From an uncultured Bacteroidota bacterium (lineage in GTDB: Bacteria; Bacteroidota; Bacteroidia; Bacteroidales; P3): 64,000 bases of DNA. This document shows positions 8,801-41,958 of this stretch, in pieces. The stretch spans positions 30,932 to 94,931 of the forward strand of contig CACYIK010000004.1 of the NCBI GenBank assembly GCA_902774395.1, written 5' to 3'. Position 1 is the stretch's first letter. Each line of letters opens with the position of its first letter. The notes beneath the pieces were generated by a model. That model did not search any database. It saw nothing but the letters and a program-made list of their open reading frames with translations, and was not told where the DNA came from. The position numbers were made by a program, and so were the translations under genes.

Positions 8801-8868
8801 CACGTCATTCACACCAATCTCTTCTTTCTCTTTTCGCGCACATTTCATTGAACGTTAATTGCCGTTAA

Positions 8869-15440: not shown

Positions 15441-16883
15441 ATGATAACAAAAGAGGAACTGCGGGAATTACTGCACAGCACGGAAACATATAGAGTGGAA
15501 CGCACCACCTCGACAGGTGATATGGATAAGTTTCAGGAAGCCATCTGTGCGTTCTCGAATGATTTGCCCAATTCACGCAAGAATGGTTATCTTATTATAG
15601 GAGCATACGATAATGGGAAGTTGTCTGGCTTGAAAGTGACTGACGACCTGCTGAAGAAGATTGCCTCCATCCGTTCCGATGGCAATATTCTTCCGTTACC
15701 GATGATGTCTGTCGAACGCTTTGAATTTCCGGAAGGAGATCTTCTTGTGGCCGAGGTATTGCCATCGCTTCTTCCCCCCGTTCGTTACCGTGGACGGACA
15801 TTTATTCGCATAGGCCCTCGTCGAGATATTGCAACGGAAGCTGAGGAGAGAATACTATTAGAGCGTAGGACTTCATATATGGCCACCTTCGATGCAATGC
15901 CCTGTTTGGGAGCATCGATAAAAGACATTGACACCGAATATATAAAGAACGACTATCTCCCTCAAGTTGTTGATCCAGACTTGCTGGCCACCGACAAACG
16001 GGATTTGAAGGAACAACTGTCCGCCATCCATCTGTATGATCTCGAACACGACTGTCCCACAAATGCTGCCATCATCCTTTTTGGCAAGAATCCGCAATAC
16101 TATATGCACGGATGTTATGTCCAATATGTACATTTTGCAGGAATAAACAATGGTGGCGAAATATTGAACGAGAAGCAGATAAAAGGGTGCCTGTGTAGAA
16201 TGTTGCCTCAATTGGAGAGTTTTGTCCGTGACGCCGTCGTGACATCCCGTCCGGTACCCATTGGTATGTTGCGCGAGCAAACCGTCTTCAATTATCCAGA
16301 GTTGGCATTAAGAGAGTTGCTGATGAACGCCTGTATGCACAGGGATTACCAGTCGAATATGCCAATCCGTCTCTACCAGTATGACGACCGCATAGAAATA
16401 CTCAATGCTGGAGGACTCTATGGCGAGGCGAGGCCCGAGAACTTCCCGACGGTAAACGACTATCGTAATCCCATCATTGCCGAAGCTATGCGAGGGCTCA
16501 AATATGTCAATATGTTCAACCGTGGTATTGAGCGTGTTAAAACCATGTTCCAAGAAAACGGGAATCCGGAACCCTCATTCAAAGTCGATAAGATTACTGC
16601 TTTCGAGGTCGTGGCCAAACCGACTTTATCACTCAACTTAGTCACTGATAAAGAAAAAGTGACTAAGTCAGTGACCAAGATGACGGAAAAGGTGAATGAT
16701 ATTATTGCTTTCTGTTCCGTTCCTCGGAGTATGACCGAGATAATGGATCATATAGGCATGAAACACCGTTATAATGTGAAGCATAGATACATCGACCCTT
16801 TGATTGAAAGTGGTTTCTTGGAGATGACCATACCCGACAAACCAAATAGCAGAAGTCAAAAGTACAAGAGGGCATTAACTTAG
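15441..16883 (+). CDS. AlbA_2 (Schlafen-like) + HATPase_c_4 ATP-binding protein with a C-terminal wHTH module ('RecG-like' putative regulator)
   Basis: 480 aa. N-terminal AlbA_2-like region (ETYRVERTTS...EAICAFSNDLPNSRKNGYLIIGAYDNGKLSGL). Central region ELALRELLMNACMHRDYQSN...IEILNAGGLYG. C-terminal wHTH shared with the fic remnant. Embedded between hsdM and hsdS, 6 nt after hsdM. Confidence 0.75.
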   Translation: MITKEELRELLHSTETYRVERTTSTGDMDKFQEAICAFSNDLPNSRKNGYLIIGAYDNGKLSGLKVTDDLLKKIASIRSDGNILPLPMMSVERFEFPEGDLLVAEVLPSLLPPVRYRGRTFIRIGPRRDIATEAEERILLERRTSYMATFDAMPCLGASIKDIDTEYIKNDYLPQVVDPDLLATDKRDLKEQLSAIHLYDLEHDCPTNAAIILFGKNPQYYMHGCYVQYVHFAGINNGGEILNEKQIKGCLCRMLPQLESFVRDAVVTSRPVPIGMLREQTVFNYPELALRELLMNACMHRDYQSNMPIRLYQYDDRIEILNAGGLYGEARPENFPTVNDYRNPIIAEAMRGLKYVNMFNRGIERVKTMFQENGNPEPSFKVDKITAFEVVAKPTLSLNLVTDKEKVTKSVTKMTEKVNDIIAFCSVPRSMTEIMDHIGMKHRYNVKHRYIDPLIESGFLEMTIPDKPNSRSQKYKRALT

Positions 16884-16930
16884 TCACTTAACTTAGTCAC
16901 TAATCAAAAAAAGTGACCAAGTTAAAATGG

Positions 16931-18343
16931 ATGTTTATGGACACAAAGAAACTACGCCAGAAGATACTCGACCTCGCCATTCGTGGCAAACTCGTCCCCC
17001 AAGACCCCAACGACGAGCCTGCCTCTGTATTGCTGGAGCGCATCCTTGCTGAGAAAGAACGCCTCATCAAGGAAGGAAAGATAAAACGAAGCAAGAAGAC
17101 GGCTACAAATGATGATATTGAAGCGCCCTTTGAGATTCCTGAAAGTTGGGAGTGGACAAACATCGAAGCTGTTGCTGAATCCAATATAGGATTGACATAT
17201 AAACCATCTGATATTACATTAAATGGAATACCAGTTTATCGCTCAAACAACATTCAGAATAAAGAGATAGTTTTAACAGACATTGTAAGAGTAAAAACTG
17301 ATATTCAAACAAAACAATATCTCAATGAGGGTGATTTGCTAATATGTGCTAGAAATGGAAGTCGAAATCTTGTAGGTAAATGTGCTCTTATAAAGCACCT
17401 CACTGAGCCAACTTCTTTTGGGGCTTTTATGGCAGTTTGTCGAAGTGAGTTCAACGAATGGATTTTTCTATTGCTTAATTCAGAATACTTTAATACATAT
17501 TTGGACGAATCAAATTCAACTGCTATAAATCAGGTGACTCAGAAAATGCTCCTTGCATTTCAATTACCATTTCCACCTAAAAAAGAACAAAAGCGTATTT
17601 ATAATGAGGTTACTAAATGGTTTTCTGTGATTGACGAATTGGAGAGCAACGAGGGTGATTTGTTGAAGGCTATAGATAAAGCAAAGTCCAAAATCCTCGA
17701 CCTCGCCATTCACGGTAAACTTGTACCCCAAGACCCCAACGACGAACCCGCCATTGAACTCTTAAAGCGCATCAACCCAAAGTTTGAACCTTGTGATAAT
17801 GAACTCGACGACACCCATCTTCCAGATAATTGGTGCTGGACAACACTAGGCAATATCTTTAACCATAATACAGGGAAGGCATTAAATAAGTCTGATTCGC
17901 AGGAAGGATCATTGCTGCCATATATTACGACGTCTAATGTATATTGGAATCGGTTTGATTTATCTGAGATAAAGAAGATGTTCTTTAAAGACTCAGAAAT
18001 TGACAAATGTACAATAACAAAAGGCGACTTGTTGGTTTGTGAGGGTGGCGATATAGGACGTTCTGCAATATGGAACTATGATTACGATATTTGTATTCAA
18101 AACCACATCCATAGGCTACGTGCAAAAGGCGATGTCAGCCATCTCCTGTATTTATACGTCCTTATGTTTTACAAATGGACAGACAGAATACGGGGGAATG
18201 GCATTGGTCTTCAAGGATTGTCATCTAGGCTATTAGACAAAATCATCGTACCATTACCTCCATATCAGGAGCAACTCCGCATCGTATCAAAGATAGAAGA
18301 ACTCTTTGCCGCCCTTAACAGTATCAAAGAATCCCTAGAATAA
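16931..18343 (+). CDS. hsdS: type I R-M specificity subunit S
   Basis: Two AT-rich target-recognition domains separated by duplicated conserved helices KILDLAI(R/H)GKLVPQDPNDEPA (DNA 16961-17023 and 17690-17751). The ORF track starts at GTG 16913; the first ATGs are 16931 and 16937. Confidence 0.9.
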   Translation: MFMDTKKLRQKILDLAIRGKLVPQDPNDEPASVLLERILAEKERLIKEGKIKRSKKTATNDDIEAPFEIPESWEWTNIEAVAESNIGLTYKPSDITLNGIPVYRSNNIQNKEIVLTDIVRVKTDIQTKQYLNEGDLLICARNGSRNLVGKCALIKHLTEPTSFGAFMAVCRSEFNEWIFLLLNSEYFNTYLDESNSTAINQVTQKMLLAFQLPFPPKKEQKRIYNEVTKWFSVIDELESNEGDLLKAIDKAKSKILDLAIHGKLVPQDPNDEPAIELLKRINPKFEPCDNELDDTHLPDNWCWTTLGNIFNHNTGKALNKSDSQEGSLLPYITTSNVYWNRFDLSEIKKMFFKDSEIDKCTITKGDLLVCEGGDIGRSAIWNYDYDICIQNHIHRLRAKGDVSHLLYLYVLMFYKWTDRIRGNGIGLQGLSSRLLDKIIVPLPPYQEQLRIVSKIEELFAALNSIKESLE

Positions 18344-18347
18344 ACTC

Positions 18348-19445
18348 ATGAATAGGCTTGTACTCATAGGCAACGGCTTCGACTTGGCGCACGGCTTGAA
18401 AACAAGCTATGCGGATTTCATCAACTGGTATTGGGCGCAGTGGGGATACTTATTGAGAGGAAAAGCAAAAAGATTTGAAGAAGATGAGCTCTGTTCGTTT
18501 TCGCTGAATGAGATAGGACTGGGTGGCTGGTATCTTGTTTGGAGTCATTATTATCAAAAACAAAACCCCTTCGATTGGGATTTGAATGAGGTGGCGAAAT
18601 TAGCAAGAGAGGATCGAAAACTATGTGAATTCAAATACAAAAGCCCTTTCTTCGAGCATATCAACAAAAGCTTTGAAAACAAACGATGGGTTGATATCGA
18701 AAACGAATACTATGACTTACTGGTAAAGGCAAAAACATTTGGCAACCAATATCAATCTCTTAACAAACAATTGGAGTCTGTCCGTAACAAACTAATAACA
18801 TTTCTATGTGAGGTGAGCAAAGAACAACCTCCTATGATAGAGGAAATAAAAGAAAAAATATATCGTCCAATAGAAAGGAGAGAACTGCAAACATCTCACC
18901 CATATGTCAGAAATGAAGAATTAGTCATCAGGAACACGTTGTTGCTCAACTTCAACTATACCAACACTCCGGAAATGTATTTGGCAGATAATTCGACGGT
19001 CAACTACATACACGGGAAATTAGATGACCCTCAAAGCGTAATCTTCGGCTATGGGGATGAATTGGACGAGAATTATAAAAGGCTCAAGGAGCAAAATGAT
19101 AGCGAGTGTATGCGTCATGTGAAGTCCATCCGATACTTGGAGCACGACAACTACCGTCGCATGCTCGAGTTCATCGAGTCGGCCCCTTTCCAAGCCGTCA
19201 TTATGGGGCACTCCTGTGGCAATAGCGACAGAACATTGCTTAACACCATCTTTGAACACCGCAACTGCTTATCAATAAAGCCATATTATTACCAGAAAGA
19301 CGATAAGACAGACAACTATTCCGAATTGACAATAAACATCAACCGAAATTTCAGCGACCCAAAACTGATGCGCGACCGCGTGGTATGCAAAGATTACTGC
19401 GAACCACTAACTGGGGTGAAACCAGGAGTAATAGTAATGGGGTAG
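18348..19445 (+). CDS. AbiH-like abortive-infection family protein
   Basis: 365 aa. The N-terminus LVLIGNGFDLAHGLKTSYADFINWYW matches the hallmark N-terminal motif of the AbiH family (Pfam AbiH) as I recall it. Starts 4 nt after the hsdS stop. AT-rich like the hsdS TRDs. Confidence 0.65.
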   Translation: MNRLVLIGNGFDLAHGLKTSYADFINWYWAQWGYLLRGKAKRFEEDELCSFSLNEIGLGGWYLVWSHYYQKQNPFDWDLNEVAKLAREDRKLCEFKYKSPFFEHINKSFENKRWVDIENEYYDLLVKAKTFGNQYQSLNKQLESVRNKLITFLCEVSKEQPPMIEEIKEKIYRPIERRELQTSHPYVRNEELVIRNTLLLNFNYTNTPEMYLADNSTVNYIHGKLDDPQSVIFGYGDELDENYKRLKEQNDSECMRHVKSIRYLEHDNYRRMLEFIESAPFQAVIMGHSCGNSDRTLLNTIFEHRNCLSIKPYYYQKDDKTDNYSELTININRNFSDPKLMRDRVVCKDYCEPLTGVKPGVIVMG

Positions 19446-19479
19446 AAAATAGATGGACAAGAAAAGAAAGCGAAATGGG

Positions 19480-19925
19480 GTGTATGTGATAATGAAAGTG
19501 AAATGCGTTTATTTGCAAATGTGTGAATCTTGAACAATCGATTGCTTAAACTGAGGTCGGCGACAATGTGGAGCCAATATTTGAATGCGTTAATGTGTAA
19601 ATGCGTAAATGTGTGAGTAAACATAAAAATTACATATTTGGCTTCTATAGAGATAATTGTAAGAGAGGGATCTAATAAAAAAGGGTATTGGATTATAGCT
19701 GATTTACAATAAATGTTACAATAAATGTTACAATAAATGCTACAATAAATAATACATATCATCTATGAGACTTATCGATACTTGAATGCGATATAAACCT
19801 AAACATTTATATAAGTTAATGCGTGAACGTTATAACGAATGTGTAAATGCGATAATGTGTGAATGAGTAAATCTTGAATAATCGATTGCTTGAGCTGAGG
19901 TCGGCGACAATGTGGAGTCAATGAG
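19480..19925. repeat. non-coding repeat region: duplicated ~55-bp core with stutter-word arms, plus a 12-bp x4 tandem array
   Basis: Core AATCTTGAACAATCGATTGCTTAAACTGAGGTCGGCGACAATGTGGAGCCAAT (19526-19578) recurs as AATCTTGAATAATCGATTGCTTGAGCTGAGGTCGGCGACAATGTGGAGTCAAT (19870-19922). Both copies are preceded by AATGCGT/AATGTGT word runs. TACAATAAATGT x4 lies at 19705-19755. Confidence 0.8.
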
Positions 19926-20101
19926 ACAAAGGACAACAGGAGTCCCTGGTTGGTGGTCAAGAAGTATTAGCAGCCGCGGAAACACGCACTAACCTACAGC
20001 AATGCCAAGTCATGATATAGGCATCGAGGAAGAGGGACCTCTGCCGATGGCGGCAGAAAGCACCACAGATTATTGAATCAGAGATAAAGTTTTTTTCATA
20101 G

Positions 20102-20338
20102 GACCCTATTTTAACATTGCTGAGGATGATGAAGTCGGGCATCGTGGTGCGCAGTACTCATTATGAGGTAGAAGACCCCTTCTTCCGTCAATGGATTTGC
20201 CAGAATATCACGCAATATTTCTGGAATAGCAAAAAAAAGAAGAGGGGGGTAAATTCATGGTGTGTGCGTTGGTGGACGGGGTTTCCTCTGACCGAATCGG
20301 CGATTTCATATTTTATTTTTGGCGTTTTCCGGAAATAA
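20102..20338 (+). pseudogene. possible C-terminal remnant of an AAA/DUF234-type ATPase gene
   Basis: A frame without a proper start reads ...LTLLRMMKSGIVVRSTHYEVEDPFFRQWI..., resembling the tail (Y-x-I/V-x-DPFF-x-xW) of archaeal-type ATPase/DUF234 proteins common in Bacteroidales. The rest is low complexity. Confidence 0.3.
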
Positions 20339-22352: not shown

Positions 22353-22425
22353 CAAAGACAAGAAAGGACAAGAAAAGACAATCTATATCATCAAAAGTTG
22401 TTCTTTCTTGTCCTTTCTTGTCTTT
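22353..22425. repeat. stutter-word hairpin between lemA and the TPM gene
   Basis: Left arm CAAAGACAAGAAAGGACAAGAAAAGACAA (22353-22381). Right arm TTGTTCTTTCTTGTCCTTTCTTGTCTTT (22398-22425) is its near reverse complement. Confidence 0.85.
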
Positions 22426-22448
22426 AAAACAACGAATACAGTAGTTCT

Positions 22449-23246
22449 ATGAGAAAAATAGTCTTGTTGTTGATGATAGTCTTGGGTGTGGGGGGGCTTC
22501 ACGCGCAGTGGATGCCTGAGAAGAGCAACCGGCTGGTCAACGACTATTCCCACATGCTCACCACGGAGCAGGCCAACAGCCTGGAGAAGCGCCTTGTGGC
22601 TTTCAACGACTCCACCTCGAACCAGATTGTGATCATCATCACCCCCACCCTGGGCGGCGACGCCGCCTGGGCCGTGGCCACACAGATAGGACAGGAATGG
22701 GGCGTGGGACAGAAGAAGTTCGACAACGGCGTGGTGATACTCATCAAGTCGAAAAGCGCCGAGGAGCCCGACGGCGACGTGACCATCGCCACGGGTTATG
22801 GCGTTGAAGGCGCCCTGCCCGACGCTTTCTGCAAACGCATCATCGACGACGTGATGGTCGGCCCCCTGGGCAATGGCGACTACTACACAGCCCTCACCGA
22901 GGCCCTCGACCTTATCGAGCCCACGCTGCGCGGCGAATACAGCTATGCCAAATACCGCGACGAGGAGCGCCGCGACGCCGTGACGGGCCTGCTCATCTTT
23001 GTCGGCCTCATCGGCGTGGTGGCCCTGTCGCTGTGGCTCTACTACCGCAAACACCCCAACGACTTCAACAACAAGGGCAACAACGGCCACAAGGGCGGCG
23101 GCGGCAGCGGTCTCTTCATGGGTGCCTACCCCTGGTTCATGGGCAGCGGCACCCGCGGCGGCGGCGGCGGCTTCAGCAGCGGCGGAGGTTTCGGTGGCTT
23201 CGGCGGCGGAAGCTTCGGCGGCGGCGGAGCATCGGGAAAGTTTTGA
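22449..23246 (+). CDS. TPM-domain (YgcG-like) membrane protein with a glycine-rich tail
   Basis: Signal peptide, TPM-like region (LVNDYSHMLTTEQANSLEKRLVAFNDSTSNQIVIII), a TM helix and a C-terminal GGGGFSSGGGFGGFGGGSFGGGG tail. Classic LemA neighbour. Confidence 0.82.
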   Translation: MRKIVLLLMIVLGVGGLHAQWMPEKSNRLVNDYSHMLTTEQANSLEKRLVAFNDSTSNQIVIIITPTLGGDAAWAVATQIGQEWGVGQKKFDNGVVILIKSKSAEEPDGDVTIATGYGVEGALPDAFCKRIIDDVMVGPLGNGDYYTALTEALDLIEPTLRGEYSYAKYRDEERRDAVTGLLIFVGLIGVVALSLWLYYRKHPNDFNNKGNNGHKGGGGSGLFMGAYPWFMGSGTRGGGGGFSSGGGFGGFGGGSFGGGGASGKF

Positions 23247-23380
23247 GAATTGAGAATTAAGAATTAAGAATTAAGAATTGAGAATTAAGAATTAAAAATT
23301 AAAAATTAAGAATTTCGCTATTGGGTGGGATTAAAAATATTGTTAATTTTTCAATTTTAATCACCAATTTTCAATTTTTT
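23245..23380. repeat. 7-bp x10 stutter array (GAGAATT/AAGAATT/AAAAATT) with an imperfect inverted partner
   Basis: 23245-23314 is exactly ten 7-nt words. 23331-23380 (TTAAAAATATTGTTAATTTTTCAATTTTAATCACCAATTTTCAATTTTTT) is a degenerate reverse complement (AATTGAAAATT vs AATTGAGAATT). Confidence 0.85.
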
Positions 23381-23618: not shown

Positions 23619-23773
23619 TGAGTTGCTGAGTGACTAAGTTGCTGAGTAACCAAGTAGCAAAGTAGCTAAGTTGCGAAGTAAAGCAATTTAGCTTCTTTTT
23701 TTTACTAGGAAAATCTAGGAGAAGCTAGGATAACCTAGGATAACCTAGGAGGTTCTAGGAGGACCTAGGAGGA
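23619..23773. repeat. two adjacent stutter arrays: AGTTGCTGAGT/AAGTAGC words, then CTAGGA every 10 bp x7
   Basis: 23619-23685: AGTTGCTGAGTGACTAAGTTGCTGAGTAACCAAGTAGCAAAGTAGCTAAGTTGCGAAGTAAAGC. CTAGGA occurs at 23705, 23715, 23725, 23735, 23745, 23755 and 23765, an exact 10-bp phasing. The array ends 25 nt before the Nudix ATG. Confidence 0.85.
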
Positions 23774-23797: not shown

Positions 23798-24346
23798 ATG
23801 AAGCAAACCACTTTGTGCTATATCGACAACGGCGACAGCTATCTGATGCTGCACCGCGTGAAGAAAGAGAACGACGCCAGCCACGGCAAGTGGATAGGCG
23901 TGGGCGGCAAGTGCGAGGCCGACGAGAGCCCCGACGAGTGCATGCTGCGCGAGGTGAAGGAAGAGACGGGTCTGGACATCACCAAATGGCACTACCGCGG
24001 CATCGTCACCTTCATCTCCGACACCTGGCCCAACGAATACATGCACCTCTTCACCGCCACGGCCTGGCGCGGCGAGCCCGACATGAGCATCGACGACGAG
24101 GGCACCCTGGCGTGGATACCCAAATCAGTGATTAGTGATCAGTGTTCAGTGCTCAGTGACGTCCTGCAGGACAGCGGCAGCCAACTTAACACTAAACACT
24201 TACCACTAAACAATCTTCCCATGTGGGAGGGCGACAAGATATTCCTCCGCCTCCTTCTTGACGAGTCCACCCCCTTCTTCTCCCTCAAGCTCGTCTATGA
24301 GCAGGACGAAATGGTAAAAGCGACACTTAATGGAACGGCACTTTGA
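23798..24346 (+). CDS. Nudix hydrolase (MutT-like)
   Basis: Nudix box GKWIGVGGKCEADESPDECMLREVKEETGL. Carries an in-frame word-array insertion at 24126-24211. Confidence 0.85.
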   Translation: MKQTTLCYIDNGDSYLMLHRVKKENDASHGKWIGVGGKCEADESPDECMLREVKEETGLDITKWHYRGIVTFISDTWPNEYMHLFTATAWRGEPDMSIDDEGTLAWIPKSVISDQCSVLSDVLQDSGSQLNTKHLPLNNLPMWEGDKIFLRLLLDESTPFFSLKLVYEQDEMVKATLNGTAL

Positions 24347-27038
24347 CCCGTGGCAACAGGAGGCGATAGAGATCAGTGGCGGACGCCACCTGGTGCTGGC
24401 GCCTCCGGGATGCGGCAAGACAGACATCCTGACCGAGCGCATCGTCCACGCCCATGAGCAGGGTGTGGAATACCGCGACATGCTGTGTCTCACCTTCACC
24501 AACCGCGCCGCCAAGGGCATGGCTCAGCGTATCGCCGACCGCACAGGCAATCCTGTGCCCGACGACCTCTTCGTGGGGAACATACACCGTTACTGCTCGC
24601 AGATGCTCTTCAACGAAGGCCTCGTGAACCACAACAGCGCCATCATCGACGAGGGCGACGTGGACAACATCGTCCAGGAGGAGCTCTGCAAGAAGATGAA
24701 TATCGAGAGCCGCACCACGGAGCTCATGCGCTTCCAGCACGGCCTGCAGCAGATGGCGCTGGGCATGCGCGGCGAGCTGGTGCTGCACAACGAGCTTTTC
24801 CATGCCGGCGGCGTAGCGAAGCTCTGCGACGTACTGGGGCGTCCCTTCGACGAGGACAATATCGCCGACATCTACACCGACATCGAGAACCTCTACCAGA
24901 GATACAGCATACTGCAGGAACTGCCGGCCGCCAACCTCATGCGTCTGGCCAAAGCCTACGAGCACTACAAGGCAGAGAACGACCTGCTGGACTATGACGA
25001 TTTGCTGATACTGGCGTACCAGTATTTGCAAGGTGAAAGGTTAAAGGTGAAAGGTGAAACAGTTGGTACAATCAATACCTCTCACCTCTCACCTTTCACC
25101 TCTCACCATTACCAGTGGATTGAGATTGACGAGGTGCAGGACCTCAACGCATTGCAGTTCGCCCTGGTGGACCTCTTCGCTGCCGACGACGCCACCATCG
25201 TATACCTCGGCGACGAGCAGCAGGCCATCTTCTCCTTCATCGGCGCCAAACTCGAGACCCTCGAAACCCTGAAACAGCGCTGCGAAGGACATATCCACCA
25301 CCTGCACACCAACTACCGCTCGCCCAAATACCTGCTCGACCTACAGAACGACTATGCGGAGAAGAACCTCGGCATCAGACGCGACCTCCTGCCCACCACC
25401 CCGCAATCAGCGCCCGTCACGCCACACCCGCAGGACCTCTGCCTGATGAATGTCGGCGACGCACAGCTGGAGAGTTACTATGCCGCCCGCTTCGCCAAGC
25501 GTTACGGCGAGATGGATCCCGAAGGGAAGGTTGCCATCCTCGTCAGCACCAACCGCGAGGCCGACGACATCGGCGAAGTGATGAGCGGCATGGGCATCAG
25601 TCACTTCAAGATCAGCGGCACCGACCTCTTCTCGCTGCCCGCCATGCGGATGCTCACGGCGCACCTCAGCGTCCTGGCCGACGAGATGGTCTTCATCGCC
25701 TGGGCGCGTCTGCTGTGGGGTCTCAAGGTGACACCCACCTATACCGCCGCGCGCAACCTCATGCGCGACATGCGCCGCGTGGCGCTGCTGCCCACCGACT
25801 TCCTGCGCTACCCCGACAGCTCCTACCTGCAGGAGTTCGTCCATGTATACGACCACGAAGAGCTCGTCATCTTCGACACCGAGACCACCGGCCTCGACGT
25901 GCGCCACGACGACATCATCCAGATTGCCGCCGTCAAGGTGCGGCAGGGCAAGGTGGTAGGAAAACCCTTCAACATTATCCTCGAGACCGACAAGGAGCTG
26001 CCCGCCACCGTGGGAGGCCACCCCAACCCCATGCTCGAGGTCTACCGCAACAGCAAACGCTATTCCCGCACCGAAGGACTGAAGAAATTCCTGGAATACT
26101 GCCAAGGGAAGACCTTGGTGGGGCACAACGTGGAGTACGACTACCAGATACTACGTAATAATCTAATAAGGGAGACAGGAGATAAGGAGACAGGAGATAA
26201 GGCTGTACTCCCCAATAAATATTTCGACACCCTGAAATACATCCGGCTGGTGCGGCCGCGCCTGCGGCAGTACAAGCTCGGCCACCTTCTCGAGGTACTG
26301 CACCTCGAAGGGCAGAACAGCCACCAGGCCGACGACGACATCATGGCCACGCTCTCGCTACTCAACTACTGCCACAACGTGGCACGTCAGATGATTGACG
26401 ACCAGCGGCTCTTCGTCAGCAATCACCAGAAACAGGTGGACAAGTTCCACAAGCTGTACGCAGAGATGCATCAGCATGGATGTAAGGAGACAGGAGACAA
26501 GGAGACAGGAGACAAGACAAATGAAGAGGGGGGGATTGTTGCTGAATTACAATATGCCTACGAGAAGTTGCTCGAGGCCAAGCTTATCGAGCCCATCGAT
26601 AAATGGCATCACCTGCTGCACTACCTCGAGGGAGAGCTCATCCGCACCGACCTCTACCCCACTCTGCAGCAGCAGCTCGAGCGTTATGTCACCGACCTCA
26701 ACACCCTCAAGGAGGCCGACCTCTGCGGCAGCACGCTCGAGGAGCGCTACATCATCTCCACGGTACATAAAGCCAAGGGATTGGAGTTCGAGACGGTGAT
26801 AGTCTACCGCGCCATCGACGGCTGCTACCCCGGCAGCCACAGCTGGACAGAGAAACAGATACTGGAGGATGCGCGCCGACTCTTCGTGGCCCTTTCACGC
26901 TCCAAACGACGCCTCTGCGTGCTCTACGACGAGTATTACGGACGCTCGATACACGCCATTAGTCCCTTCCTAGAGAAAGTCCAGGGACACTTCACCCTCT
27001 ACCGCCGTTCGTCTGACGGTAAGATACGTGAAGTCTGA
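24330..27038 (+). CDS. UvrD/Rep-family SF1 helicase with an embedded DEDDh (DnaQ-like) 3'-5' exonuclease domain
   Basis: Walker A LAPPGCGKTDIL, Walker B IEIDEVQDL, exonuclease motifs VIFDTETTGLD / LVGHNVEYDYQIL / HQADDDIMAT, UvrD_C motifs ISTVHKAKGLEFETVIVY and LFVALSRSKRRL. Overlaps the Nudix gene by 17 nt. Confidence 0.85.
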   Translation: MERHFDPWQQEAIEISGGRHLVLAPPGCGKTDILTERIVHAHEQGVEYRDMLCLTFTNRAAKGMAQRIADRTGNPVPDDLFVGNIHRYCSQMLFNEGLVNHNSAIIDEGDVDNIVQEELCKKMNIESRTTELMRFQHGLQQMALGMRGELVLHNELFHAGGVAKLCDVLGRPFDEDNIADIYTDIENLYQRYSILQELPAANLMRLAKAYEHYKAENDLLDYDDLLILAYQYLQGERLKVKGETVGTINTSHLSPFTSHHYQWIEIDEVQDLNALQFALVDLFAADDATIVYLGDEQQAIFSFIGAKLETLETLKQRCEGHIHHLHTNYRSPKYLLDLQNDYAEKNLGIRRDLLPTTPQSAPVTPHPQDLCLMNVGDAQLESYYAARFAKRYGEMDPEGKVAILVSTNREADDIGEVMSGMGISHFKISGTDLFSLPAMRMLTAHLSVLADEMVFIAWARLLWGLKVTPTYTAARNLMRDMRRVALLPTDFLRYPDSSYLQEFVHVYDHEELVIFDTETTGLDVRHDDIIQIAAVKVRQGKVVGKPFNIILETDKELPATVGGHPNPMLEVYRNSKRYSRTEGLKKFLEYCQGKTLVGHNVEYDYQILRNNLIRETGDKETGDKAVLPNKYFDTLKYIRLVRPRLRQYKLGHLLEVLHLEGQNSHQADDDIMATLSLLNYCHNVARQMIDDQRLFVSNHQKQVDKFHKLYAEMHQHGCKETGDKETGDKTNEEGGIVAELQYAYEKLLEAKLIEPIDKWHHLLHYLEGELIRTDLYPTLQQQLERYVTDLNTLKEADLCGSTLEERYIISTVHKAKGLEFETVIVYRAIDGCYPGSHSWTEKQILEDARRLFVALSRSKRRLCVLYDEYYGRSIHAISPFLEKVQGHFTLYRRSSDGKIREV
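25032..25107. repeat. in-frame stutter-word hairpin inside the helicase gene
   Basis: Left arm GGTGAAAGGTTAAAGGTGAAAGGTGAAA (25032-25059) and right arm CTCTCACCTCTCACCTTTCACCTCTCACC (25079-25107) are near reverse complements. Translated as GERLKVKGETVGTINTSHLSPFTSH, immediately before the Walker B motif. Confidence 0.85.
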
Positions 27039-33230: not shown

Positions 33231-33362
33231 GTAGTTAAAGAAGTTAAAGGAAGTTATCGCTCGCTACGCTCGCTAGTAGTTAAAGCCGATAGTACCGTCT
33301 CTGGTGCAGAATAATGCATTTGTCCTTTAACTACTTTAACTACCTTGACTACTTTAACTACC
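33231..33362. repeat. stutter-word hairpin inside the que operon (queD-queE spacer)
   Basis: Left arm GTAGTTAAAGAAGTTAAAGGAAGTTAT...AGTAGTTAAAGCC (33231-33286). Right arm CCTTTAACTACTTTAACTACCTTGACTACTTTAACTACC (33324-33362), with 9-nt words that are the reverse complement of the left-arm words. Confidence 0.85.
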
Positions 33363-35217: not shown

Positions 35218-36447
35218 ATGAATTTTGCCGTCAAGATCTTGAATAAATATACCAATACCAGCCTGATGCTAAGGATTTTCATCGGACTGGTGATAGGTGC
35301 CGCCATCGGACTGCTGCTGCCGCAGTGGACTGGCATCGCCATCCTTGGGAAGATGTTTGTCAGCGCCCTGAAAGGCATCGCGCCGGTGTTGGTGGCGGTG
35401 TTGGTGATGTCGTCGGTAGCCAAAGCCGGCAAAGGCTACGGACGCCGCTTCACATCGCTGATATGCATCTACCTGCTCTCCACATTCATCGCCGCCGTCT
35501 GCGCCGTGGTGGGCAGTTTTCTGTTCCCGGTGACGCTCGATCTCGGCGAGGCCGCACAGGTCGACTCCAGCGTGGGCTCGCTGGCCGACGTGTTCGCCAA
35601 CCTGCTCACCTCCATGGTGGCCAACCCCGTGGCAGCCATTGCCAACGCCAACTACATCGCCATCCTCTTCTGGAGCATCGTCATTGGCATCTCGCTGAAG
35701 ACCATGGCCTCGAAGGCCACCGTCAACGTAGTACACGACCTCTCCGCGGTGGTCACCAAGGTGGTGCGGTGGGTCATCCAGTTCGCCCCCTTCGGCATTT
35801 TAGGTCTGGTCTTCTCCACCGTCAGCGAGAACGGCCTGACCGTCTTCTCCACCTACGGCCACCTGATACTCCTGCTGGTGGGTTGCATGCTCACCAACGC
35901 ACTCATCTTCAACCCTCTCATAGCTTTCATCCTGACCAAGAAGAACCCCTACCCGCTCCTCTTCACCTGTCTGAAGGAGAGTGGCCTGCAGGCTTTCTTC
36001 ACACGCTCTTCGGCGGCCAATATCCCCATCAATATGGCGCTCTGCAAGAAGCTGGGATTGGATGAGGACTTCTACTCCGTGAGTATCCCGCTGGGCGCCA
36101 CCATCAATATGGACGGCGCGGCGGTCACCATCACCGTCTTCGCCCTAGCGGTGGCCCACACCGTGGGTGTCGACGTCACCTTCGCCTCGGCCCTGTTCCT
36201 GGGCATCATCGCCACCCTCGGCGCCTGCGGCGCCTCGGGCGTGGCCGGCGGTAGCCTGCTGCTCATCCCCATGGCCTGCTCCTTCTTCGGCATCGGCAGC
36301 GACATAGCCATGCAGGCCGTCGCCATCGGCTTCATCGTCGGCGTCGTCCAAGACTCCGTCGAGACCGCCCTCAACTCCAGCGGCGACGCCTTCTTCACCG
36401 CCACCGCCGAACAGCACGACAGGGCAAAAGTAAAAAGTAAAAACTAA
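35218..36447 (+). CDS. sstT: serine/threonine transporter SstT (DAACS family)
   Basis: Polytopic membrane protein with sodium:dicarboxylate symporter motifs (TRSSAANIPI, ATINMDGAA). The start was moved to ATG 35218 because 35182 lies inside the promoter box. The last codons (DRAKVKSKN) fall in a GTAAAAG word array. Confidence 0.88.
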   Translation: MNFAVKILNKYTNTSLMLRIFIGLVIGAAIGLLLPQWTGIAILGKMFVSALKGIAPVLVAVLVMSSVAKAGKGYGRRFTSLICIYLLSTFIAAVCAVVGSFLFPVTLDLGEAAQVDSSVGSLADVFANLLTSMVANPVAAIANANYIAILFWSIVIGISLKTMASKATVNVVHDLSAVVTKVVRWVIQFAPFGILGLVFSTVSENGLTVFSTYGHLILLLVGCMLTNALIFNPLIAFILTKKNPYPLLFTCLKESGLQAFFTRSSAANIPINMALCKKLGLDEDFYSVSIPLGATINMDGAAVTITVFALAVAHTVGVDVTFASALFLGIIATLGACGASGVAGGSLLLIPMACSFFGIGSDIAMQAVAIGFIVGVVQDSVETALNSSGDAFFTATAEQHDRAKVKSKN

Positions 36448-36459
36448 AAGGTAAAAGGT

Positions 36460-36508
36460 AAAAAAAGAAGGCTGACACAATGTTGATTGTGTCAGCCTTC
36501 TTTTTTTT
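36460..36508. terminator. bidirectional intrinsic terminator between sstT (+) and hutU (-)
   Basis: Perfect 14-bp stem GAAGGCTGACACAA / TTGTGTCAGCCTTC (36467-36480 / 36487-36500), flanked by an A7 run upstream and a T8 run downstream. Confidence 0.8.
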
Positions 36509-36527
36509 GAGTTCTTACCTCTTAGTT

Positions 36528-38528
36528 CTAGAAGAGGCCTTCGAGGACGGAGTCGTCGACGAGGTTGGGCATGGTGACCTTAAGCTCGGGGCAGATGTCC
36601 ATGGCGCGCTTGATGGCGAACATGGCGCCTTCGTTGCGGGCCCAGGAACGGCGGCTGATGCCGTTGTTGACGTCCCAGTGGAGCATCATGCGGAGACGGC
36701 GGTCGCAAGCCTCAGAACCATCGAGGACCATGCCGAAGCCACCATTGATGACCTCGCCCCAGCCAACGCCGCCGCCGTTGTGGATAGAAACCCACGTGGC
36801 GCCACGGAAGCTGTCGCCGATGACGTTCTGCACGGCCATATCGGCGCAACGGTTCGAGCCATCGTAGATGTTGCTGGTCTCACGGAAGGGGCTGTCGGTA
36901 CCGCTGACGTCGTGGTGGTCGCGACCGAGGACGATAGGGGCGCTGATCTCACCCTTCTTGATGGCCTCGTTGAAGCGGGCGGCAATCTTGGTGCGGCCTT
37001 CGCAGTCGGCATAGAGAATACGGGCCTGGGAACCGACAACAAGGTGATTCTCCTTGGCACCCTTGATCCACTGGATATTGTCGTGCATCTGCTGCTGAAT
37101 CTCGGCGGGAGCCGTGGCAGCAATCTCACCCAGCACCTCCATGGCGATATGGTCGCTCTTGTCGAGGTCCTCAGGCTTGCCACTGGTGCAGACCCAGCGG
37201 AAGGGACCGAAGCCGTAGTCGAAGCACATCGGGCCCATGATATCCTGAACGTAGGAAGGATAGCGGAAAGCGGTCTTATCGGCATTCCAGATATCGGCAC
37301 CGGCGCGGCTGCTCTCCAGCAGGAAGGCGTTGCCGTAGTCGAAGAAGTACATACCCTTGGCGGTAAGCTTGTTGACGGCAGTCACATGGCGGCGGAGAGA
37401 CTCCTGCACCTTCTCCTTGAAGAGCTCTGGCTTCTCGGCCATCATCACCTTGGCATCCTCGAAGCTGACACCCACGGGATAGTAGCCACCGGCCCAGGGG
37501 TTATGCAGCGAGGTCTGGTCGCTGCCGAGGTCCACCTTGATGCCCTTCTCAGCGCAGTACTCCCAGAGGTCGACGACATTGCCCTGGTAGGCATAGCTCT
37601 TGGCCTCCTTGGCGGCGATGGACTTGTTGACGGCCACGAAGAGCTCGTCGAGGTTGTCGTGCACCTCGTCGACCCAGCCCTGCGTGTAGCGCTTCTGCGT
37701 GGCGGCGGGGTTGATTTCGGCGGTGATGGAGACCACACCGGCGATGTCACCAGCCTTGGGCTGGGCGCCACTCATGCCGCCGAGGCCGGCGGTGATGAAG
37801 AGCTTACCGGCGGTGCCACCACCGAGCTTACGGGCAGCGTTCAAGACGGTGATGGTGGTGCCGTGGACGATACCCTGAGGACCGATGTACATGTAGGAGC
37901 CGGCGGTCATCTGACCGTACTGCGTGACGCCGAGGGCGTTGTAGCGCTCCCAGTCGTCGGGCTTGCTGTAGTTGGGAATCATCATGCCGTTGGTGACGAC
38001 CACACGCGGGGCGTCCTTGTGGCTGGGATAGAGTCCCATGGGATGACCGCTGTACATCACGAGTGTCTGCTCGTCGGTCATCTCACTCAAATATTTCATA
38101 ACCAGACGGTACTGAGCCCAGTTCTGGAAGACGGCGCCGTTGCCGCCGTAGGTGATGAGCTCGTGGGGATGCTGAGCCACGGCGGGGTCGAGGTTGTTCT
38201 GGATCATCAGCATGATGGCGGCAGCCTGACGGCACTTGGCGGGGTACTCCTCGATGGGGCGGGCATACATCTTGTAGGTGGGACGCAGACGGTACATATA
38301 GATGCGGCCGTACTTCTGCAGCTCCTCGGCGAACTCCTTGGCCAGCATCTTGTGGTGCTTGGCGGGGAAGTAGCGCAGGGCGTTGCGGATGGCGAGCTTC
38401 TTCTCGGCAGGCGTCAGGATGTCCTTACGCTTGGGGGCGTGGTTCACCGTAGGGTCGTAAGCGGGCATTTCGGGCAGCGGATCGGGGATACCGAGGCGCA
38501 ATTCATTCTGGAATTCTTCTAAAGTCAT
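36528..38528 (-). CDS. hutU: urocanate hydratase
   Basis: 666 aa, long-form urocanase. Conserved blocks include TAGLGGMSGAQP and GTDSPFRETSN. Confidence 0.93.
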   Translation of the reverse strand: MTLEEFQNELRLGIPDPLPEMPAYDPTVNHAPKRKDILTPAEKKLAIRNALRYFPAKHHKMLAKEFAEELQKYGRIYMYRLRPTYKMYARPIEEYPAKCRQAAAIMLMIQNNLDPAVAQHPHELITYGGNGAVFQNWAQYRLVMKYLSEMTDEQTLVMYSGHPMGLYPSHKDAPRVVVTNGMMIPNYSKPDDWERYNALGVTQYGQMTAGSYMYIGPQGIVHGTTITVLNAARKLGGGTAGKLFITAGLGGMSGAQPKAGDIAGVVSITAEINPAATQKRYTQGWVDEVHDNLDELFVAVNKSIAAKEAKSYAYQGNVVDLWEYCAEKGIKVDLGSDQTSLHNPWAGGYYPVGVSFEDAKVMMAEKPELFKEKVQESLRRHVTAVNKLTAKGMYFFDYGNAFLLESSRAGADIWNADKTAFRYPSYVQDIMGPMCFDYGFGPFRWVCTSGKPEDLDKSDHIAMEVLGEIAATAPAEIQQQMHDNIQWIKGAKENHLVVGSQARILYADCEGRTKIAARFNEAIKKGEISAPIVLGRDHHDVSGTDSPFRETSNIYDGSNRCADMAVQNVIGDSFRGATWVSIHNGGGVGWGEVINGGFGMVLDGSEACDRRLRMMLHWDVNNGISRRSWARNEGAMFAIKRAMDICPELKVTMPNLVDDSVLEGLF

Positions 38529-38655: not shown

Positions 38656-38790
38656 CACTGATACTTAACACCAACACCGTACCAACTCCGTATCAAGTCC
38701 GACTCAACTCCGACCCAAGTCCGACTATGGTAGGAGTTGATACGGTGTTGGTAGGGTGTTGGTAGGTGTTTGATAGGGTATTGGTACGGT
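38656..38790. repeat. stutter-word hairpin element, copy 2 of the dispersed repeat seen at 8694-8800
   Basis: The left arm CACTGATACTTAACACCAACACCGTACCAACTCCGTATCAAGTCCGACTCAACTCCGACCC pairs with the right arm GGAGTTGATACGGTGTTGGTAGGGTGTTGGTAGGTGTTTGATAGGGTATTGGTACGG. Confidence 0.85.
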
Positions 38791-41187: not shown

Positions 41188-41195
41188 GGTGTTTA

Positions 41196-41906: not shown

Positions 41907-41958
41907 TGTTTAATGATGAATGATGAGTGATGAGTGATGAATGATAAGTGATAAACGA

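What the first reader, a model, noticed from the sequence alone, without database searches (positions are those of the whole stretch)
25032..25107. 76-nt hairpin of GGTGAAA words inserted in frame just before the Walker B motif of the helicase
The sequence between ...LILAYQYLQ and HYQWIEIDEVQDL is a near-perfect inverted repeat: GGTGAAAGGTTAAAGGTGAAAGGTGAAA, a 19-nt loop, then CTCTCACCTCTCACCTTTCACCTCTCACC. It reads through as GERLKVKGETVGTINTSHLSPFTSH. In UvrD-family proteins the residues preceding the DExx box are structurally constrained. A 25-aa low-complexity loop here is therefore either tolerated as a surface loop, removed at the RNA or protein level, or modulates expression, for example through ribosome or polymerase stalling at a 28-bp stem.
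Basis: seen in the sequence. Interest (0 to 1): 0.62.

Follow-up and report, generated by a model that had tools for sequence, protein, structure and literature searches.

The report
Heptamer-repeat hairpin inside a helicase gene
A 76-base hairpin built from repeated 7-letter DNA words sits in frame in a floppy, highly variable surface loop of a rumen bacterium's helicase; it is one of dozens of slippage-prone mini-repeats in this genome and looks like a tolerated passenger, not a special control device.

Summary
Window 25032-25107 is (GGTGAAA)x4, a 19-nt spacer, then (CTCTCAC)x4. It lies in frame in a 902-aa UvrD-like helicase / DnaQ-like exonuclease gene of an uncultured rumen Bacteroidales. 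It is a lineage-specific insertion. Among 121 orthologues the linker before the motif II strand is 6-41 aa long, with 89 different sequences. About half are short and non-repetitive; many of the rest are other translated repeat or palindrome inserts.

It is not unique. The window holds 23 arrays of period 7/8/10/11, against 0.03 in shuffles. Several form inverted pairs, and at least six genes carry in-frame arrays (NUDIX, helicase, RecO, S8 peptidase, PorZ-like, one small ORF).

Conspecific strains differ by whole words: 7, 9 or 10 nt between genes, but 21, 24 or 15 nt inside genes. The stem's only non-wobble mismatch (GGTTAAA) removes an in-frame TGA.

RNA-run contigs give no sign that the insert is removed. 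AlphaFold2 places it in a low-confidence coil. No conserved loop or flanks mark a mobile element.

Best reading: a slippage-driven repeat hairpin tolerated in a permissive loop. This is a new variant of known kinds (heptameric SSRs; in-frame palindromes such as Rickettsia RPEs). The hairpin itself is of moderate interest; the genome-wide pattern is of more.

The parts
24330..27038 (+). Host gene: 902-aa UvrD/PcrA-like SF1 helicase with an inserted DnaQ/RNase T-like 3'-5' exonuclease domain (residues ~511-677).
   Evidence: ORF and translation. Pfam hits UvrD-helicase, AAA_19, UvrD_C and RNase_T. PDB hits PcrA, UvrD, DnaQ and PolC exonuclease.
25032..25059 (+). Left arm: four 7-nt words, GGTGAAA GGTTAAA GGTGAAA GGTGAAA. 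It encodes GERLKVKGE. The T at 25042 replaces the G that would create an in-frame TGA.
   Evidence: Stop test: the perfect array translates as LQGER*KVKGE.
25060..25078 (+). 19-nt spacer (CAGTTGGTACAATCAATAC), the loop of the hairpin. It is not conserved in GGTGAAA hairpins at other loci.
   Evidence: The L001/L003 loop differs. The L094 loop is unrelated. Metagenome contigs share only the arms.
25079..25107 (+). Right arm: CTCTCAC CTCTCAC CTTTCAC CTCTCAC C, which is the reverse complement of GGTGAGA/GGTGAAA words. It encodes (T)SHLSPFTSH. It holds 21 nt (3 words) more than the arm in the 83%-identical orthologues.
25110..25142 (+). Invariant beta-strand plus motif II / Walker B (YQWIEIDEVQD), immediately downstream of the insert.
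   Evidence: Invariant columns W263-N273. Aligned to PcrA 212-229. Strand E261-267 in the model.
26172..26201 (+). Second in-frame array in the same gene: (GAGACAGGAGATAAG)x2, encoding ETGDKETGDK. The conspecific contigs L023/L025 have one unit (15 nt) fewer.
26487..26516 (+). Third in-frame array: (GAGACAGGAGACAAG)x2, encoding ETGDKETGDK. L022 has one unit (15 nt) fewer. It lies in model coil 721-732 with pLDDT below 50.
24124..24212 (+). Sister element: an in-frame word hairpin, (ATCAGTG)x5 / spacer / (ACTAAAC)x4, in the adjacent NUDIX gene (23798-24346). It is a 26-aa insertion absent from six orthologues. A variant word again removes an in-frame TGA.

Best explanation
The 76-nt hairpin is a pair of inverted heptanucleotide micro-arrays, (GGTGAAA)4 and (TCTCACC)4. 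It occupies a length-tolerant, disordered linker between the last helix before motif II and the motif II beta-strand. The host is a UvrD-like helicase-exonuclease of an uncultured rumen Bacteroidales.

It is transcribed and read through as an unstructured loop of about 25 aa. I infer that it has no dedicated role in the enzyme.

It belongs to a genome-wide population of 7-11-nt word arrays, often arranged as inverted pairs. These arrays gain and lose whole words by replication slippage. Between genes, single-word steps survive. Inside genes, selection passes only frame-preserving steps (three words of 7 or 8 nt, or one 15-nt unit) and stop-free word variants.

The present symmetric 28-bp stem is recent. 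The left arm, including the stop-avoiding GGTTAAA word, is shared with orthologues down to about 77% amino-acid identity. The right arm grew by 21 nt in this species.

Shown here:
- it is an insertion in a hypervariable loop;
- whole-word differences separate strains;
- the frame-preserving step sizes and the stop purging inside genes;
- no removal of the insert is seen in RNA-run contigs;
- arrays are abundant across the genome.

Inferred:
- slippage as the mechanism;
- neutrality for helicase function;
- how the inverted arrangement first arose (fold-back or template-switch copying, or inversion of an array, is plausible but untested).
For: Insertion in a variable loop:
- The linker is 6-41 aa in 121 orthologues, with 89 distinct strings and 58 of them at most 13 aa long.
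- At the DNA level, nine species have 33-39-nt non-repetitive linkers (a tenth, L014, has 42 nt), while others carry unrelated hairpins.
- AlphaFold2 gives a coil at 242-257 with pLDDT below 50, flanked by a confident helix and strand.

Slippage with a frame filter (differences between conspecific or close strains):
- Intergenic: 7 nt at 23275, 10 nt at 23722, 10 nt at 23703, 9 nt at 33258, 5 nt at 23675.
- Intragenic: 15 nt at 26187-26204 and 15 nt at 26499, 21 nt in this right arm, 24 nt (3x8) at 40744.

Stop purging: a perfect GGTGAAA array would give TGA exactly where the T.C mismatch sits. The same holds in the NUDIX array.

Genome-wide class:
- 23 arrays of period 7/8/10/11 against 0.03 in shuffles, with period 7 the most common.
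- At least 6 genes carry in-frame arrays.
- The NUDIX hairpin is also a lineage-specific insertion.
- RecO loops carry different words at the same place and length in different orthologues.

RNA: an RNA-run contig enters the left arm. Sheep metatranscriptome contigs keep the 70-nt insert of the sister allele. No excision joint is seen.

Not a conserved mobile unit: other contigs match only the ~32-nt arms, and loops differ between loci.
Against: - The origin of the inverted arrangement is not demonstrated.
- The right arm is not a copy of the left arm: it uses TCTCACC rather than TTTCACC words and does not mirror the GGTTAAA variant.
- Insert types are patchily distributed on the helicase tree. 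A 96%-identical allele carries a different array, GGAGTGAAAG x4. This turnover (replacement, recombination or re-insertion) is faster than simple slippage predicts.
- Words share an AGTG/GTGA core more often than expected: 14 and 12 of 38 words against 3.6. Neutral slippage alone does not explain that.
- Neutrality for the protein and the mRNA is inferred, not measured.
- Only assembled contigs, not raw reads, were available, so rare length variants could not be seen.
- RNA-run contigs may include DNA carry-over.
Confidence: 0.68

Rival explanations
1. The hairpin is a copy of a small non-autonomous mobile palindromic element (MITE- or RPE-like). It transposed in frame into the helicase, as Rickettsia palindromic elements do.
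For: - In-frame palindromic inserts recur at the same loops in many orthologues.
- The same words turn up at different loci and genomes. (GGTGAAA)x3 occurs in more than 119 stretches, with several loci per rumen MAG. L094 has a hairpin with an identical 28-nt right arm.
- ETGDK words occur at three different loops of this protein family.
- An 81-nt nested palindrome is present in one and absent from the other of two 95-98%-identical alleles at this very site, L146 and L145.
Against: - Similarity between loci is limited to the word arrays. Loops and flanks are unrelated.
- No target-site duplication or defined termini are visible at 25032/25107.
- The arms change independently, by whole words.
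- The identical right arm in L094 is only about a 1-in-16 coincidence, given a two-word vocabulary.
- No transposase or RAYT link was examined.
Confidence: 0.12
2. The hairpin is a selected cis-acting nucleic-acid structure. It could be an mRNA stem that slows ribosomes or recruits an RNase, an antisense-strand RNA hairpin, or a DNA cruciform that tunes expression of the helicase or the operon.
For: - Folding is very strong compared with shuffles on both strands.
- The antisense strand is 14 kcal/mol more stable, because all three transition mismatches are G.U there.
- The intergenic members of the class sit directly after stop codons, where hairpins can act as terminators or 3' stabilisers.
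Against: - The long symmetric stem exists only in this species. Orthologues at 83% identity have a right arm of about 1.5 words and a fold energy of -16 to -17 kcal/mol. Many orthologues have no insert, and a 96%-identical allele has a direct array with no right arm.
- There is no U-tract or terminator-like tail.
- No Rfam family scores above its gathering threshold.
- The stem mismatch is explained by coding, not by structure.
Confidence: 0.08
3. The heptamer arrays are contingency loci. Gain or loss of a single 7-nt word reversibly frameshifts the helicase, and likewise the NUDIX/MutT-like and RecO genes. This would give switchable repair-deficient (mutator) subpopulations.
For: - The unit length is not a multiple of three and lies inside ORFs.
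- Arrays demonstrably change by whole words between strains.
- Three of the six array-bearing genes in the window are DNA-repair or mutation-avoidance genes.
Against: - Every intragenic length difference seen preserves the frame: 15, 15, 21 and 24 nt.
- No indel variants were seen at the site in four DNA runs.
- Arrays are interrupted by variant words, which stabilise them.
- Arrays also lie in unrelated genes (S8 peptidase, PorZ).
- Contig data cannot reveal minority frameshift alleles.
Confidence: 0.07
4. The segment is removed after transcription or translation (intron- or intein-like), or it is an assembly artefact.
For: None beyond its insertion-like appearance.
Against: - RNA-run contigs keep the insert, for the sister allele, or run into it. 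No joint is seen at its borders.
- It has no intein or group I/II intron features, and no Rfam hit above threshold.
- Frame maintenance and stop purging show it is translated.
- Identical sequence is found in independent assemblies from several studies.
Confidence: 0.02

Closest known systems
Heptameric long simple-sequence repeats in prokaryotes. Examples: Mrazek et al. 2007, as summarised in PMC4679880; Xanthomonas GGGAATC and Nostoc GGGGAYT arrays, PMC4692102; TAACTGA repeats of Beggiatoaceae, Cyanobacteria and some Bacteroidetes, PMC4679880; cyanobacterial STRR.
   Same: - Tandem 7-nt words, with period 7 the most common class.
- Strong excess over chance.
- Mostly intergenic, close to stop or start codons.
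- Xanthomonas has 70-75 convergent (inverted) array pairs able to form stem-loops.
- Copy number changes by whole units.
   Different: - Here there are many different words per genome rather than one favoured heptamer.
- The words are not G4-forming.
- Arrays and inverted pairs sit in frame in internal loops of conserved enzymes. [quoted passage not shown]
- The host is an uncultured rumen Bacteroidales.
Rickettsia-specific palindromic elements (RPE) and other MITE-like repeats fused in frame to genes (Ogata et al. 2000; reviewed in PMC2229807).
   Same: - A palindromic DNA segment inserted in frame into conserved protein genes.
- It is translated and apparently neutral or slightly detrimental.
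- It is also found between genes.
   Different: - RPEs are 105-146-bp families with a conserved full-length consensus and terminal inverted repeats.
- This hairpin is 76 nt, is built of tandem 7-nt words, and shares only the words (not loop or termini) with other loci.
- Its arms grow word by word.
Coding palindromes in Nematomorpha mitochondrial genes (PMC6649704).
   Same: Long inverted repeats embedded in protein-coding sequence, with both arms translated.
   Different: - Those are organellar, up to 284 bp, and perfect palindromes that are not built of tandem words.
- They occur in a different kingdom and probably have a different origin.
Simple-sequence contingency loci (phase variation; reviewed in PMC11868660).
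   Same: An intragenic SSR whose unit is not a multiple of three, and which is prone to slippage.
   Different: No frameshifting variants were observed, only frame-preserving steps. The arrays are interrupted by variant words and lie in housekeeping or repair genes rather than surface-structure genes.

Membership tests
Long simple-sequence repeat / micro-VNTR (unit 5-11 nt) | Head-to-tail copies (3 or more) of a short unit, in excess over chance. | tested here: met
   TRF finds 25030-25059 at period 7 x4.3 and 25077-25107 at period 7 x4.4. The word pattern occurs 7 times against 0.43 expected. The window has 23 arrays against 0.03 in shuffles.
Long simple-sequence repeat / micro-VNTR (unit 5-11 nt) | Copy number differs between related genomes by whole units. 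| tested here: met
   The right arm has exactly 3 more words (21 nt) than in L001/L003. Other arrays differ by 7, 9, 10, 15 and 24 nt between conspecific strains.
Convergent heptamer-array pairs (Xanthomonas GGGAATC type, PMC4692102) | Two arrays of the same or complementary word on opposite strands in close proximity. | tested here: met
   The arms at 25032-25057 and 25082-25107 are 88% complementary, with 24 Watson-Crick pairs of 28.
Convergent heptamer-array pairs (Xanthomonas GGGAATC type, PMC4692102) | Intergenic location and a G-tract word able to form a G-quadruplex. | tested here: not met
   The element lies inside ORF 24330-27038. The word GGTGAAA has no run of three or more G.
RPE / MITE-like mobile palindromic element | Dispersed copies sharing a conserved full-length consensus (arms, core and termini). 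| tested here: not met
   In four metagenomes more than 50-120 contigs match only the ~32-nt arms and diverge at the array borders. Loops differ in L001/L003 and L094.
RPE / MITE-like mobile palindromic element | Target-site duplication at the insertion borders. | tested here: not met
   The flanks TTGCAA|...|ATTACC show no direct repeat.
RPE / MITE-like mobile palindromic element | Fused in frame to a conserved protein gene and expressed with it. | tested here: met
   The frame is open. Variant words avoid stops. RNA-run contigs run into or across the insert.
REP / REPIN | GTAG- or CGTC-tagged 20-40-bp extragenic palindromes associated with a RAYT transposase. | tested here: not met
   There is no GTAG/CGTC tag at either end, and the location is intragenic. 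The RAYT association was not examined.
Phase-variable contingency locus | Frameshifting length variants of the intragenic SSR within populations. | tested here: inconclusive
   Only frame-preserving differences were seen, and no indels in four DNA runs. However, only assembled contigs were available, so minority alleles are invisible.
Intrinsic transcription terminator | G+C-rich stem followed by a U-tract. | tested here: not met
   No terminator-like site was called at 25032-25120 on either strand. The stem is followed by ATTACCAG on the + strand and TTGCAAAT on the - strand.
Intron / intein (segment removed from the product) | A joined form lacking the segment in RNA or protein, plus conserved splicing motifs. 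| tested here: not met
   No joint at the insert borders was seen in four RNA runs, and the sister allele's 70-nt insert is retained. There are no Rfam intron hits. The protein level is not testable here.
UvrD/PcrA-like SF1A helicase (host gene) | Motif I (GxGKT), motif II (DExQD) and the UvrD N- and C-terminal domains. | tested here: met
   PPGCGKT at residues 25-31 and DEVQD at 267-271. Pfam PF00580 at 2.4e-44 and PF13361 at 1.4e-47. PcrA at 8e-31.

The most novel reading that the evidence does not exclude
An active, lineage-specific process in rumen Bacteroidales seeds, inverts and homogenises 7-11-nt word arrays with a preferred AGTG/GTGA-core vocabulary. Candidates are a particular replication or repair defect, or a dedicated enzyme. 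The process acts even inside conserved genes, so that protein loops are continuously rewritten by 'coding minisatellites' read in all three frames. In repair genes (MutT-like NUDIX, UvrD-like helicase, RecO) the arrays could double as reversible frameshift switches.
Probability: 0.12. Interest if true: 0.8.

Novelty: new variant of a known kind. Interest (0 to 1): 0.45.

Why it matters
For the helicase itself, probably little: the insert looks like a tolerated loop.

The wider pattern is more useful.

- **A natural map of insertion-tolerant loops.** In a group of abundant, uncultured rumen Bacteroidales, slippage-prone 7-11-nt word arrays are dense enough to invade internal loops of conserved enzymes. 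The sites they occupy show which loops tolerate 5-30 extra residues.
- **A clean view of selection acting on a mutational process.** Inside genes, only steps of three words or one 15-nt unit survive, and stop-creating words are mutated.
- **Practical consequences.** The arrays are a source of strain-level markers. They break assemblies. They inflate apparent protein divergence and low-complexity content in MAG annotation.
- **A pointer to the cause.** If the cause of the array proliferation, or of the AGTG-type word preference, could be tied to a replication or repair feature of these genomes, it would bear on a long-standing question. That question is why heptameric repeats dominate bacterial long SSRs.

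Tried and rejected
- **Sliding 100-nt MFE scan of the whole window.** It was uninformative, because at 55% G+C almost every window folds to -25 to -45 kcal/mol. I replaced it with an explicit stem scan.
- **Literature searches.** They found no description of word hairpins or in-frame heptamer arrays in Bacteroidales. They returned only the heptamer-SSR, TAACTGA, Xanthomonas, RPE and Nematomorpha precedents.
- **A G.U asymmetry as evidence for a selected antisense RNA.** Both intragenic hairpins have 3 A.C and 0 G.U on the sense strand. The numbers are too small, and GGTGAAA/GGTGAGA words are freely mixed in arrays elsewhere. I rejected it as evidence.
- **Right arm templated from the left arm by fold-back copying.** Rejected for the recent 21-nt gain, because the new words are TCTCACC rather than TTTCACC and the GGTTAAA variant is not mirrored.
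- **Local copying of words.** Neighbouring arrays are only marginally more alike than distant ones: 0.66 against 0.61, P about 0.06. Arrays are clustered (median nearest-neighbour distance 310 against 1018 nt, P about 0.005), but hairpin pairs inflate that figure.
- **The 'GCCTCACCCC..CCCCTCTCC' palindrome seen at this site in other species.** It is absent from the window.
- **Laying contigs on 39700-42000.** A filter blocked the call at 41304-41339. The shorter stretch worked.
- **A second structure prediction without the insert.** Not run, because edited sequences cannot be submitted.
Full report
**1. The observation**

Window 25032-25107 reads GGTGAAA GGTTAAA GGTGAAA GGTGAAA, then the 19-nt spacer CAGTTGGTACAATCAATAC, then CTCTCAC CTCTCAC CTTTCAC CTCTCAC C. 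It lies in frame in a 902-aa ORF at 24330-27038 and is translated as GERLKVKGETVGTINTSHLSPFTSH.

TRF calls both arms as period-7 arrays of 4.3 and 4.4 copies. The repeat finder reports 26-nt arms that are 88% complementary. My own stem scan counts 24 Watson-Crick pairs, three A.C oppositions and one T.C mismatch.

As RNA, the sense strand folds to -36.4 kcal/mol (z = -6.7). The antisense strand folds to -50.4 kcal/mol (z = -8.5), because the A.C oppositions become G.U there. None of 200 shuffles does as well on either strand. The two-word pattern occurs 7 times in the window against 0.43 expected, and six of those lie in this hairpin.

The same sequence is present in independent JGI, ENA and Logan assemblies.

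**2. The host gene and organism**

The ORF is a UvrD/PcrA-like SF1 helicase. It has PPGCGKT at residues 25-31 and DEVQD at 267-271, with Pfam UvrD-helicase and UvrD_C domains. An RNase T/DnaQ-like exonuclease domain is inserted at about residues 511-677.

A Bacteroidota-type TAnnTTTG promoter element is visible upstream. The closest genomes are uncultured rumen Bacteroidales MAGs (RUG429, UBA2939, RUG153 and others) at 70-83% amino-acid identity. The runs that hold the sequence are bovine and sheep gut metagenomes.

**3. It is an insertion in a hypervariable loop**

In 121 orthologues, 72-99% identical, the flanks YDDLL[IV]LAYxxL and YxWIE[IV]DEVQDLN are almost invariant. The linker between them is 6-41 residues long, with 89 different strings. 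Fifty-eight of them are 13 residues or shorter and non-repetitive, for example SGEATTS and NGSNGLNGR.

Many of the longer linkers look like translated word arrays or palindromes:
- GERLKVKGE...TSHL (14 sequences)
- KGVQGVQGSEEECK
- KETGDKETGDKTN
- GVKGSEKGVKGSE...
- VDSEQWVVSSTREQILSTNHYPLQTKK
- SPLPLSQGEGRLTQNGVDNSPLLGRGAGVRP

At the DNA level, nine species have 33-39-nt linkers with little structure, and a tenth (L014) has 42 nt. Others carry unrelated hairpins of up to -72 kcal/mol.

It is not met.

AlphaFold2 (50-sequence alignment, mean pLDDT 70.9) places the insert in a coil at 242-257 with pLDDT below 50. The coil lies between helix 222-240 and the motif II strand 261-267. The strand aligns with PcrA 212-229. 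The residues immediately before the DExx strand are thus not constrained in this family.

**4. It is one of many**

The window contains 23 arrays of period 7, 8, 10 or 11 with at least three copies, against 0.03 in 30 dinucleotide-preserving shuffles. Over the window plus 22 related loci, period 7 is the most common (26 arrays), followed by 8, 11, 10 and 9.

Several arrays form inverted pairs:
- 8703-8817
- 22353-22426
- 23246-23379
- 24129-24212
- 25032-25107
- 36440-36529
- 38669-38790

The intergenic pairs sit directly after stop codons.

In-frame arrays occur in at least six genes:
- the NUDIX gene immediately upstream;
- the helicase, at three sites;
- RecO, at three sites;
- an S8 peptidase, at four sites;
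- a PorZ-like gene, in its signal peptide;
- a small ORF.

The NUDIX hairpin, (ATCAGTG)5 / spacer / (ACTAAAC)4, is also a lineage-specific insertion. It adds 26 aa and is absent from six orthologues.

In RecO orthologues the same loop, at the same length, carries different words: NSSLPTPHSSLP, TFHLSPLTSHLP, TTHYPLPTTHFP, NSQFSILNSQLP and TSDLRPPTSDLP. This points to word turnover or concerted evolution within long-lived arrays.

**5. How the arrays change**

I compared the window with conspecific contigs: L023-L025 at 98% nucleotide identity and L022 at 97%. Apart from a few 1-3-nt gaps, the indels are gains or losses of words inside arrays.

- **Intergenic:** 7 nt at 23275, 10 nt at 23722, 10 nt at 23703, 9 nt at 33258 and 5 nt at 23675.
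- **Inside genes:** 15 nt at 26187-26204 and 15 nt at 26499, and 24 nt (3 x 8) at 40744 in run X3.
- **In this hairpin:** exactly 21 nt (3 x 7) in the right arm, relative to the 83%-identical orthologues L001 and L003. Those two share the whole left arm, including GGTTAAA.

This is the signature of slipped-strand mispairing filtered by selection for reading frame.

Selection against stops is equally visible. A perfect (GGTGAAA)4 in this frame gives LQGER*KVKGE. The actual T at 25042 turns that TGA into TTA, and it is the stem's only non-wobble mismatch. The NUDIX array avoids a TGA in the same way. Both facts show that the arrays are translated.

**6. RNA and population data**

In four DNA metagenomes no contig lacks the hairpin. 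More than 50-120 other contigs per run match only the ~32-nt arms and diverge exactly at the array borders. The words are dispersed in the community; the loop and flanks are not.

In RNA runs, one contig covers 24930-25057, reaching into the left arm. Sheep metatranscriptome contigs span the site with 70 other letters in place of 88, which is consistent with the L022-type allele. No joint removes the insert.

That sister allele, 96% identical in protein, carries GGAGTGAAAG-type words x4 and no right arm. So even within about 97% nucleotide identity the content of the site has been replaced.

No Rfam family reaches its gathering threshold, and there is no terminator-like tail.

**7. Mobile element or local product?**

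*For mobility:*
- Inserts recur at the same loops.
- The same words recur at different loci and genomes. (GGTGAAA)3 occurs in more than 119 stretches, mostly in Bacteroidota, with several loci per rumen MAG. In the Bacteroidales loci I inspected, most lie at gene junctions.
- L094 has a hairpin with an identical right arm.
- An 81-nt nested palindrome is present in L146 and absent from L145, which are 95-98% identical, at this very site.

*Against mobility:*
- No loop, termini or target-site duplication are conserved.
- The arms grow independently, word by word.
- The recent 21-nt gain is not templated from the left arm.

I therefore rank local slippage above transposition. The first appearance of the inverted arrangement remains unexplained. 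So does the preference for an AGTG/GTGA core, found in 14 and 12 of 38 words against 3.6 expected.

**8. Comparison with known systems**

- **Heptameric long SSRs.** They are known to dominate bacterial long repeats (Mrazek 2007, as summarised in PMC4679880).
- **Xanthomonas GGGAATC arrays.** They include 70-75 convergent pairs able to form stem-loops, but they are intergenic and G4-forming (PMC4692102).
- **TAACTGA repeats.** They occur in Beggiatoaceae, Cyanobacteria and a few Bacteroidetes. When inside ORFs they lie mainly at protein ends (PMC4679880, section 15).
- **Rickettsia RPEs.** They are the classic in-frame palindromic inserts. They are 105-146-bp families with a conserved consensus (PMC2229807).
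- **Nematomorpha mitochondria.** Their genes carry long coding palindromes (PMC6649704).

The present element combines features of the first and fourth kinds. It is an SSR-built hairpin, drawn from a many-word vocabulary, sitting in internal loops of conserved enzymes of rumen Bacteroidales. I found no description of this combination in seven literature searches.

**9. Verdict**

The hairpin is real and statistically striking. It is best explained as a slippage-driven repeat hairpin tolerated in a permissive loop (confidence about 0.68).

The rivals are:
- a mobile palindromic element (0.12);
- a selected RNA or DNA structure (0.08);
- a contingency switch (0.07);
- removal from the product, or an artefact (0.02).

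The genome-wide phenomenon deserves more attention than this single instance does.

Noticed in passing
window 24124-24212 (in NUDIX ORF 23798-24346): A second in-frame word hairpin: (ATCAGTG)x5, a 26-nt spacer, then (ACTAAAC)x4, encoding SVISDQCSVLSD...QLNTKHLPLNN. It is a 26-aa insertion absent from six orthologues. A variant word removes an in-frame TGA.
   Followed up: yes
window 26172-26201 and 26487-26516: Two direct copies of a (GAGACAGGAGAYAAG)x2 array, encoding ETGDKETGDK, lie 315 nt apart in the same helicase gene. Each is one 15-nt unit shorter in a conspecific strain. The same ETGDK words occupy the motif II linker in other orthologues (P0009, P0042).
   Followed up: partly
window 41305-41335, 41503-41531, 41632-41680 (RecO, minus strand): Three in-frame 7/8-nt arrays lie in RecO loops. 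Across orthologues the same loop, at the same length, carries different words (NSSLPTPHSSLP, TFHLSPLTSHLP, TTHYPLPTTHFP, NSQFSILNSQLP, TSDLRPPTSDLP). This suggests concerted evolution of long-lived arrays.
   Followed up: partly
window 39767-39800, 40740-40779, 40903-40936, 41117-41142 (S8 peptidase, minus strand): Four in-frame arrays of period 7 or 8. A 97%-identical strain in run X3 lacks exactly 24 nt (3 x 8) at 40744.
   Followed up: partly
window 44217-44246 (PorZ-like gene 41959-44310, minus strand): An (AATTGAA)x4 array is translated as part of the N-terminal signal-peptide region (FFIFQFSIFNS).
   Followed up: no
window 22353-22426, 23246-23379, 33233-33361, 36426-36529, 38669-38790, 8703-8817: Intergenic word hairpins, each with its own word of 7-11 nt, sit directly after stop codons or between convergent genes. 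They are plausible terminators or 3'-end stabilisers. 23246-23379 has 10 copies against 4 in its two arms.
   Followed up: partly
window 8703-8817 and 38669-38790: Two loci 30 kb apart share closely related 11-nt words (ACCAACACCGT / ACCAACTCCGT / ATCAAGTCCGA), with G-rich inverted partners at both loci (clearer at 38669-38790). This is the best hint in the window of a dispersed family.
   Followed up: no
window plus L001-L022, all period-7/8 arrays: The words are not random. AGTG occurs (cyclically, on either strand) in 14 of 38 words, GTGA in 12 and CTGA in 7, against 3.6, 3.6 and 1.0 expected from letter-shuffled words. Some arrays are orthologous, so the counts are not fully independent.
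   Followed up: partly
L146 vs L145 (helicase motif II linker); also L002, L006, L009, L012: A different, nested G+C-rich palindrome (GCCTCACCCC..CCCCTCTCC..GGAGAGGGG..GGGGTGAGGC, 81 nt, about -110 kcal/mol with its flanks) is present in one and absent from the other of two 95-98%-identical alleles at the same site. The inserted 3' end is the reverse complement of the pre-existing left flank. GCCC direct repeats flank it, so either fold-back insertion or precise deletion is possible.
   Followed up: partly
L094 3295-3390: In another rumen Bacteroidia MAG (RUG12856), a GGTGAAA/GGTGAGA hairpin follows a stop codon. Its right arm is identical to the window's (TCTCACCTCTCACCTTTCACCTCTCACC), but its loop is unrelated.
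   Followed up: no
window 23705-23773: Six to seven 10-nt words, CTAGGAnnnn, each containing part of the palindrome CCTAGG, lie just upstream of the NUDIX start codon. A conspecific strain has one more word.
   Followed up: no
window ~16000-20333: G+C drops to 0.40-0.41, against about 0.55 elsewhere. Synteny with the conspecific contigs L023/L024 starts only at 20333. Upstream of that point those contigs carry type I restriction-modification genes, Mrr and a C69 peptidase. This looks like a strain-variable island.
   Followed up: no
window 46615-46923 (ORF 46214-47251, minus strand): Long period-6/12/36 arrays, (CGGGTT)n-like, lie inside an ORF. These are ordinary in-frame repeats of a unit divisible by three, in contrast with the 7/8-nt arrays.
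   Followed up: no
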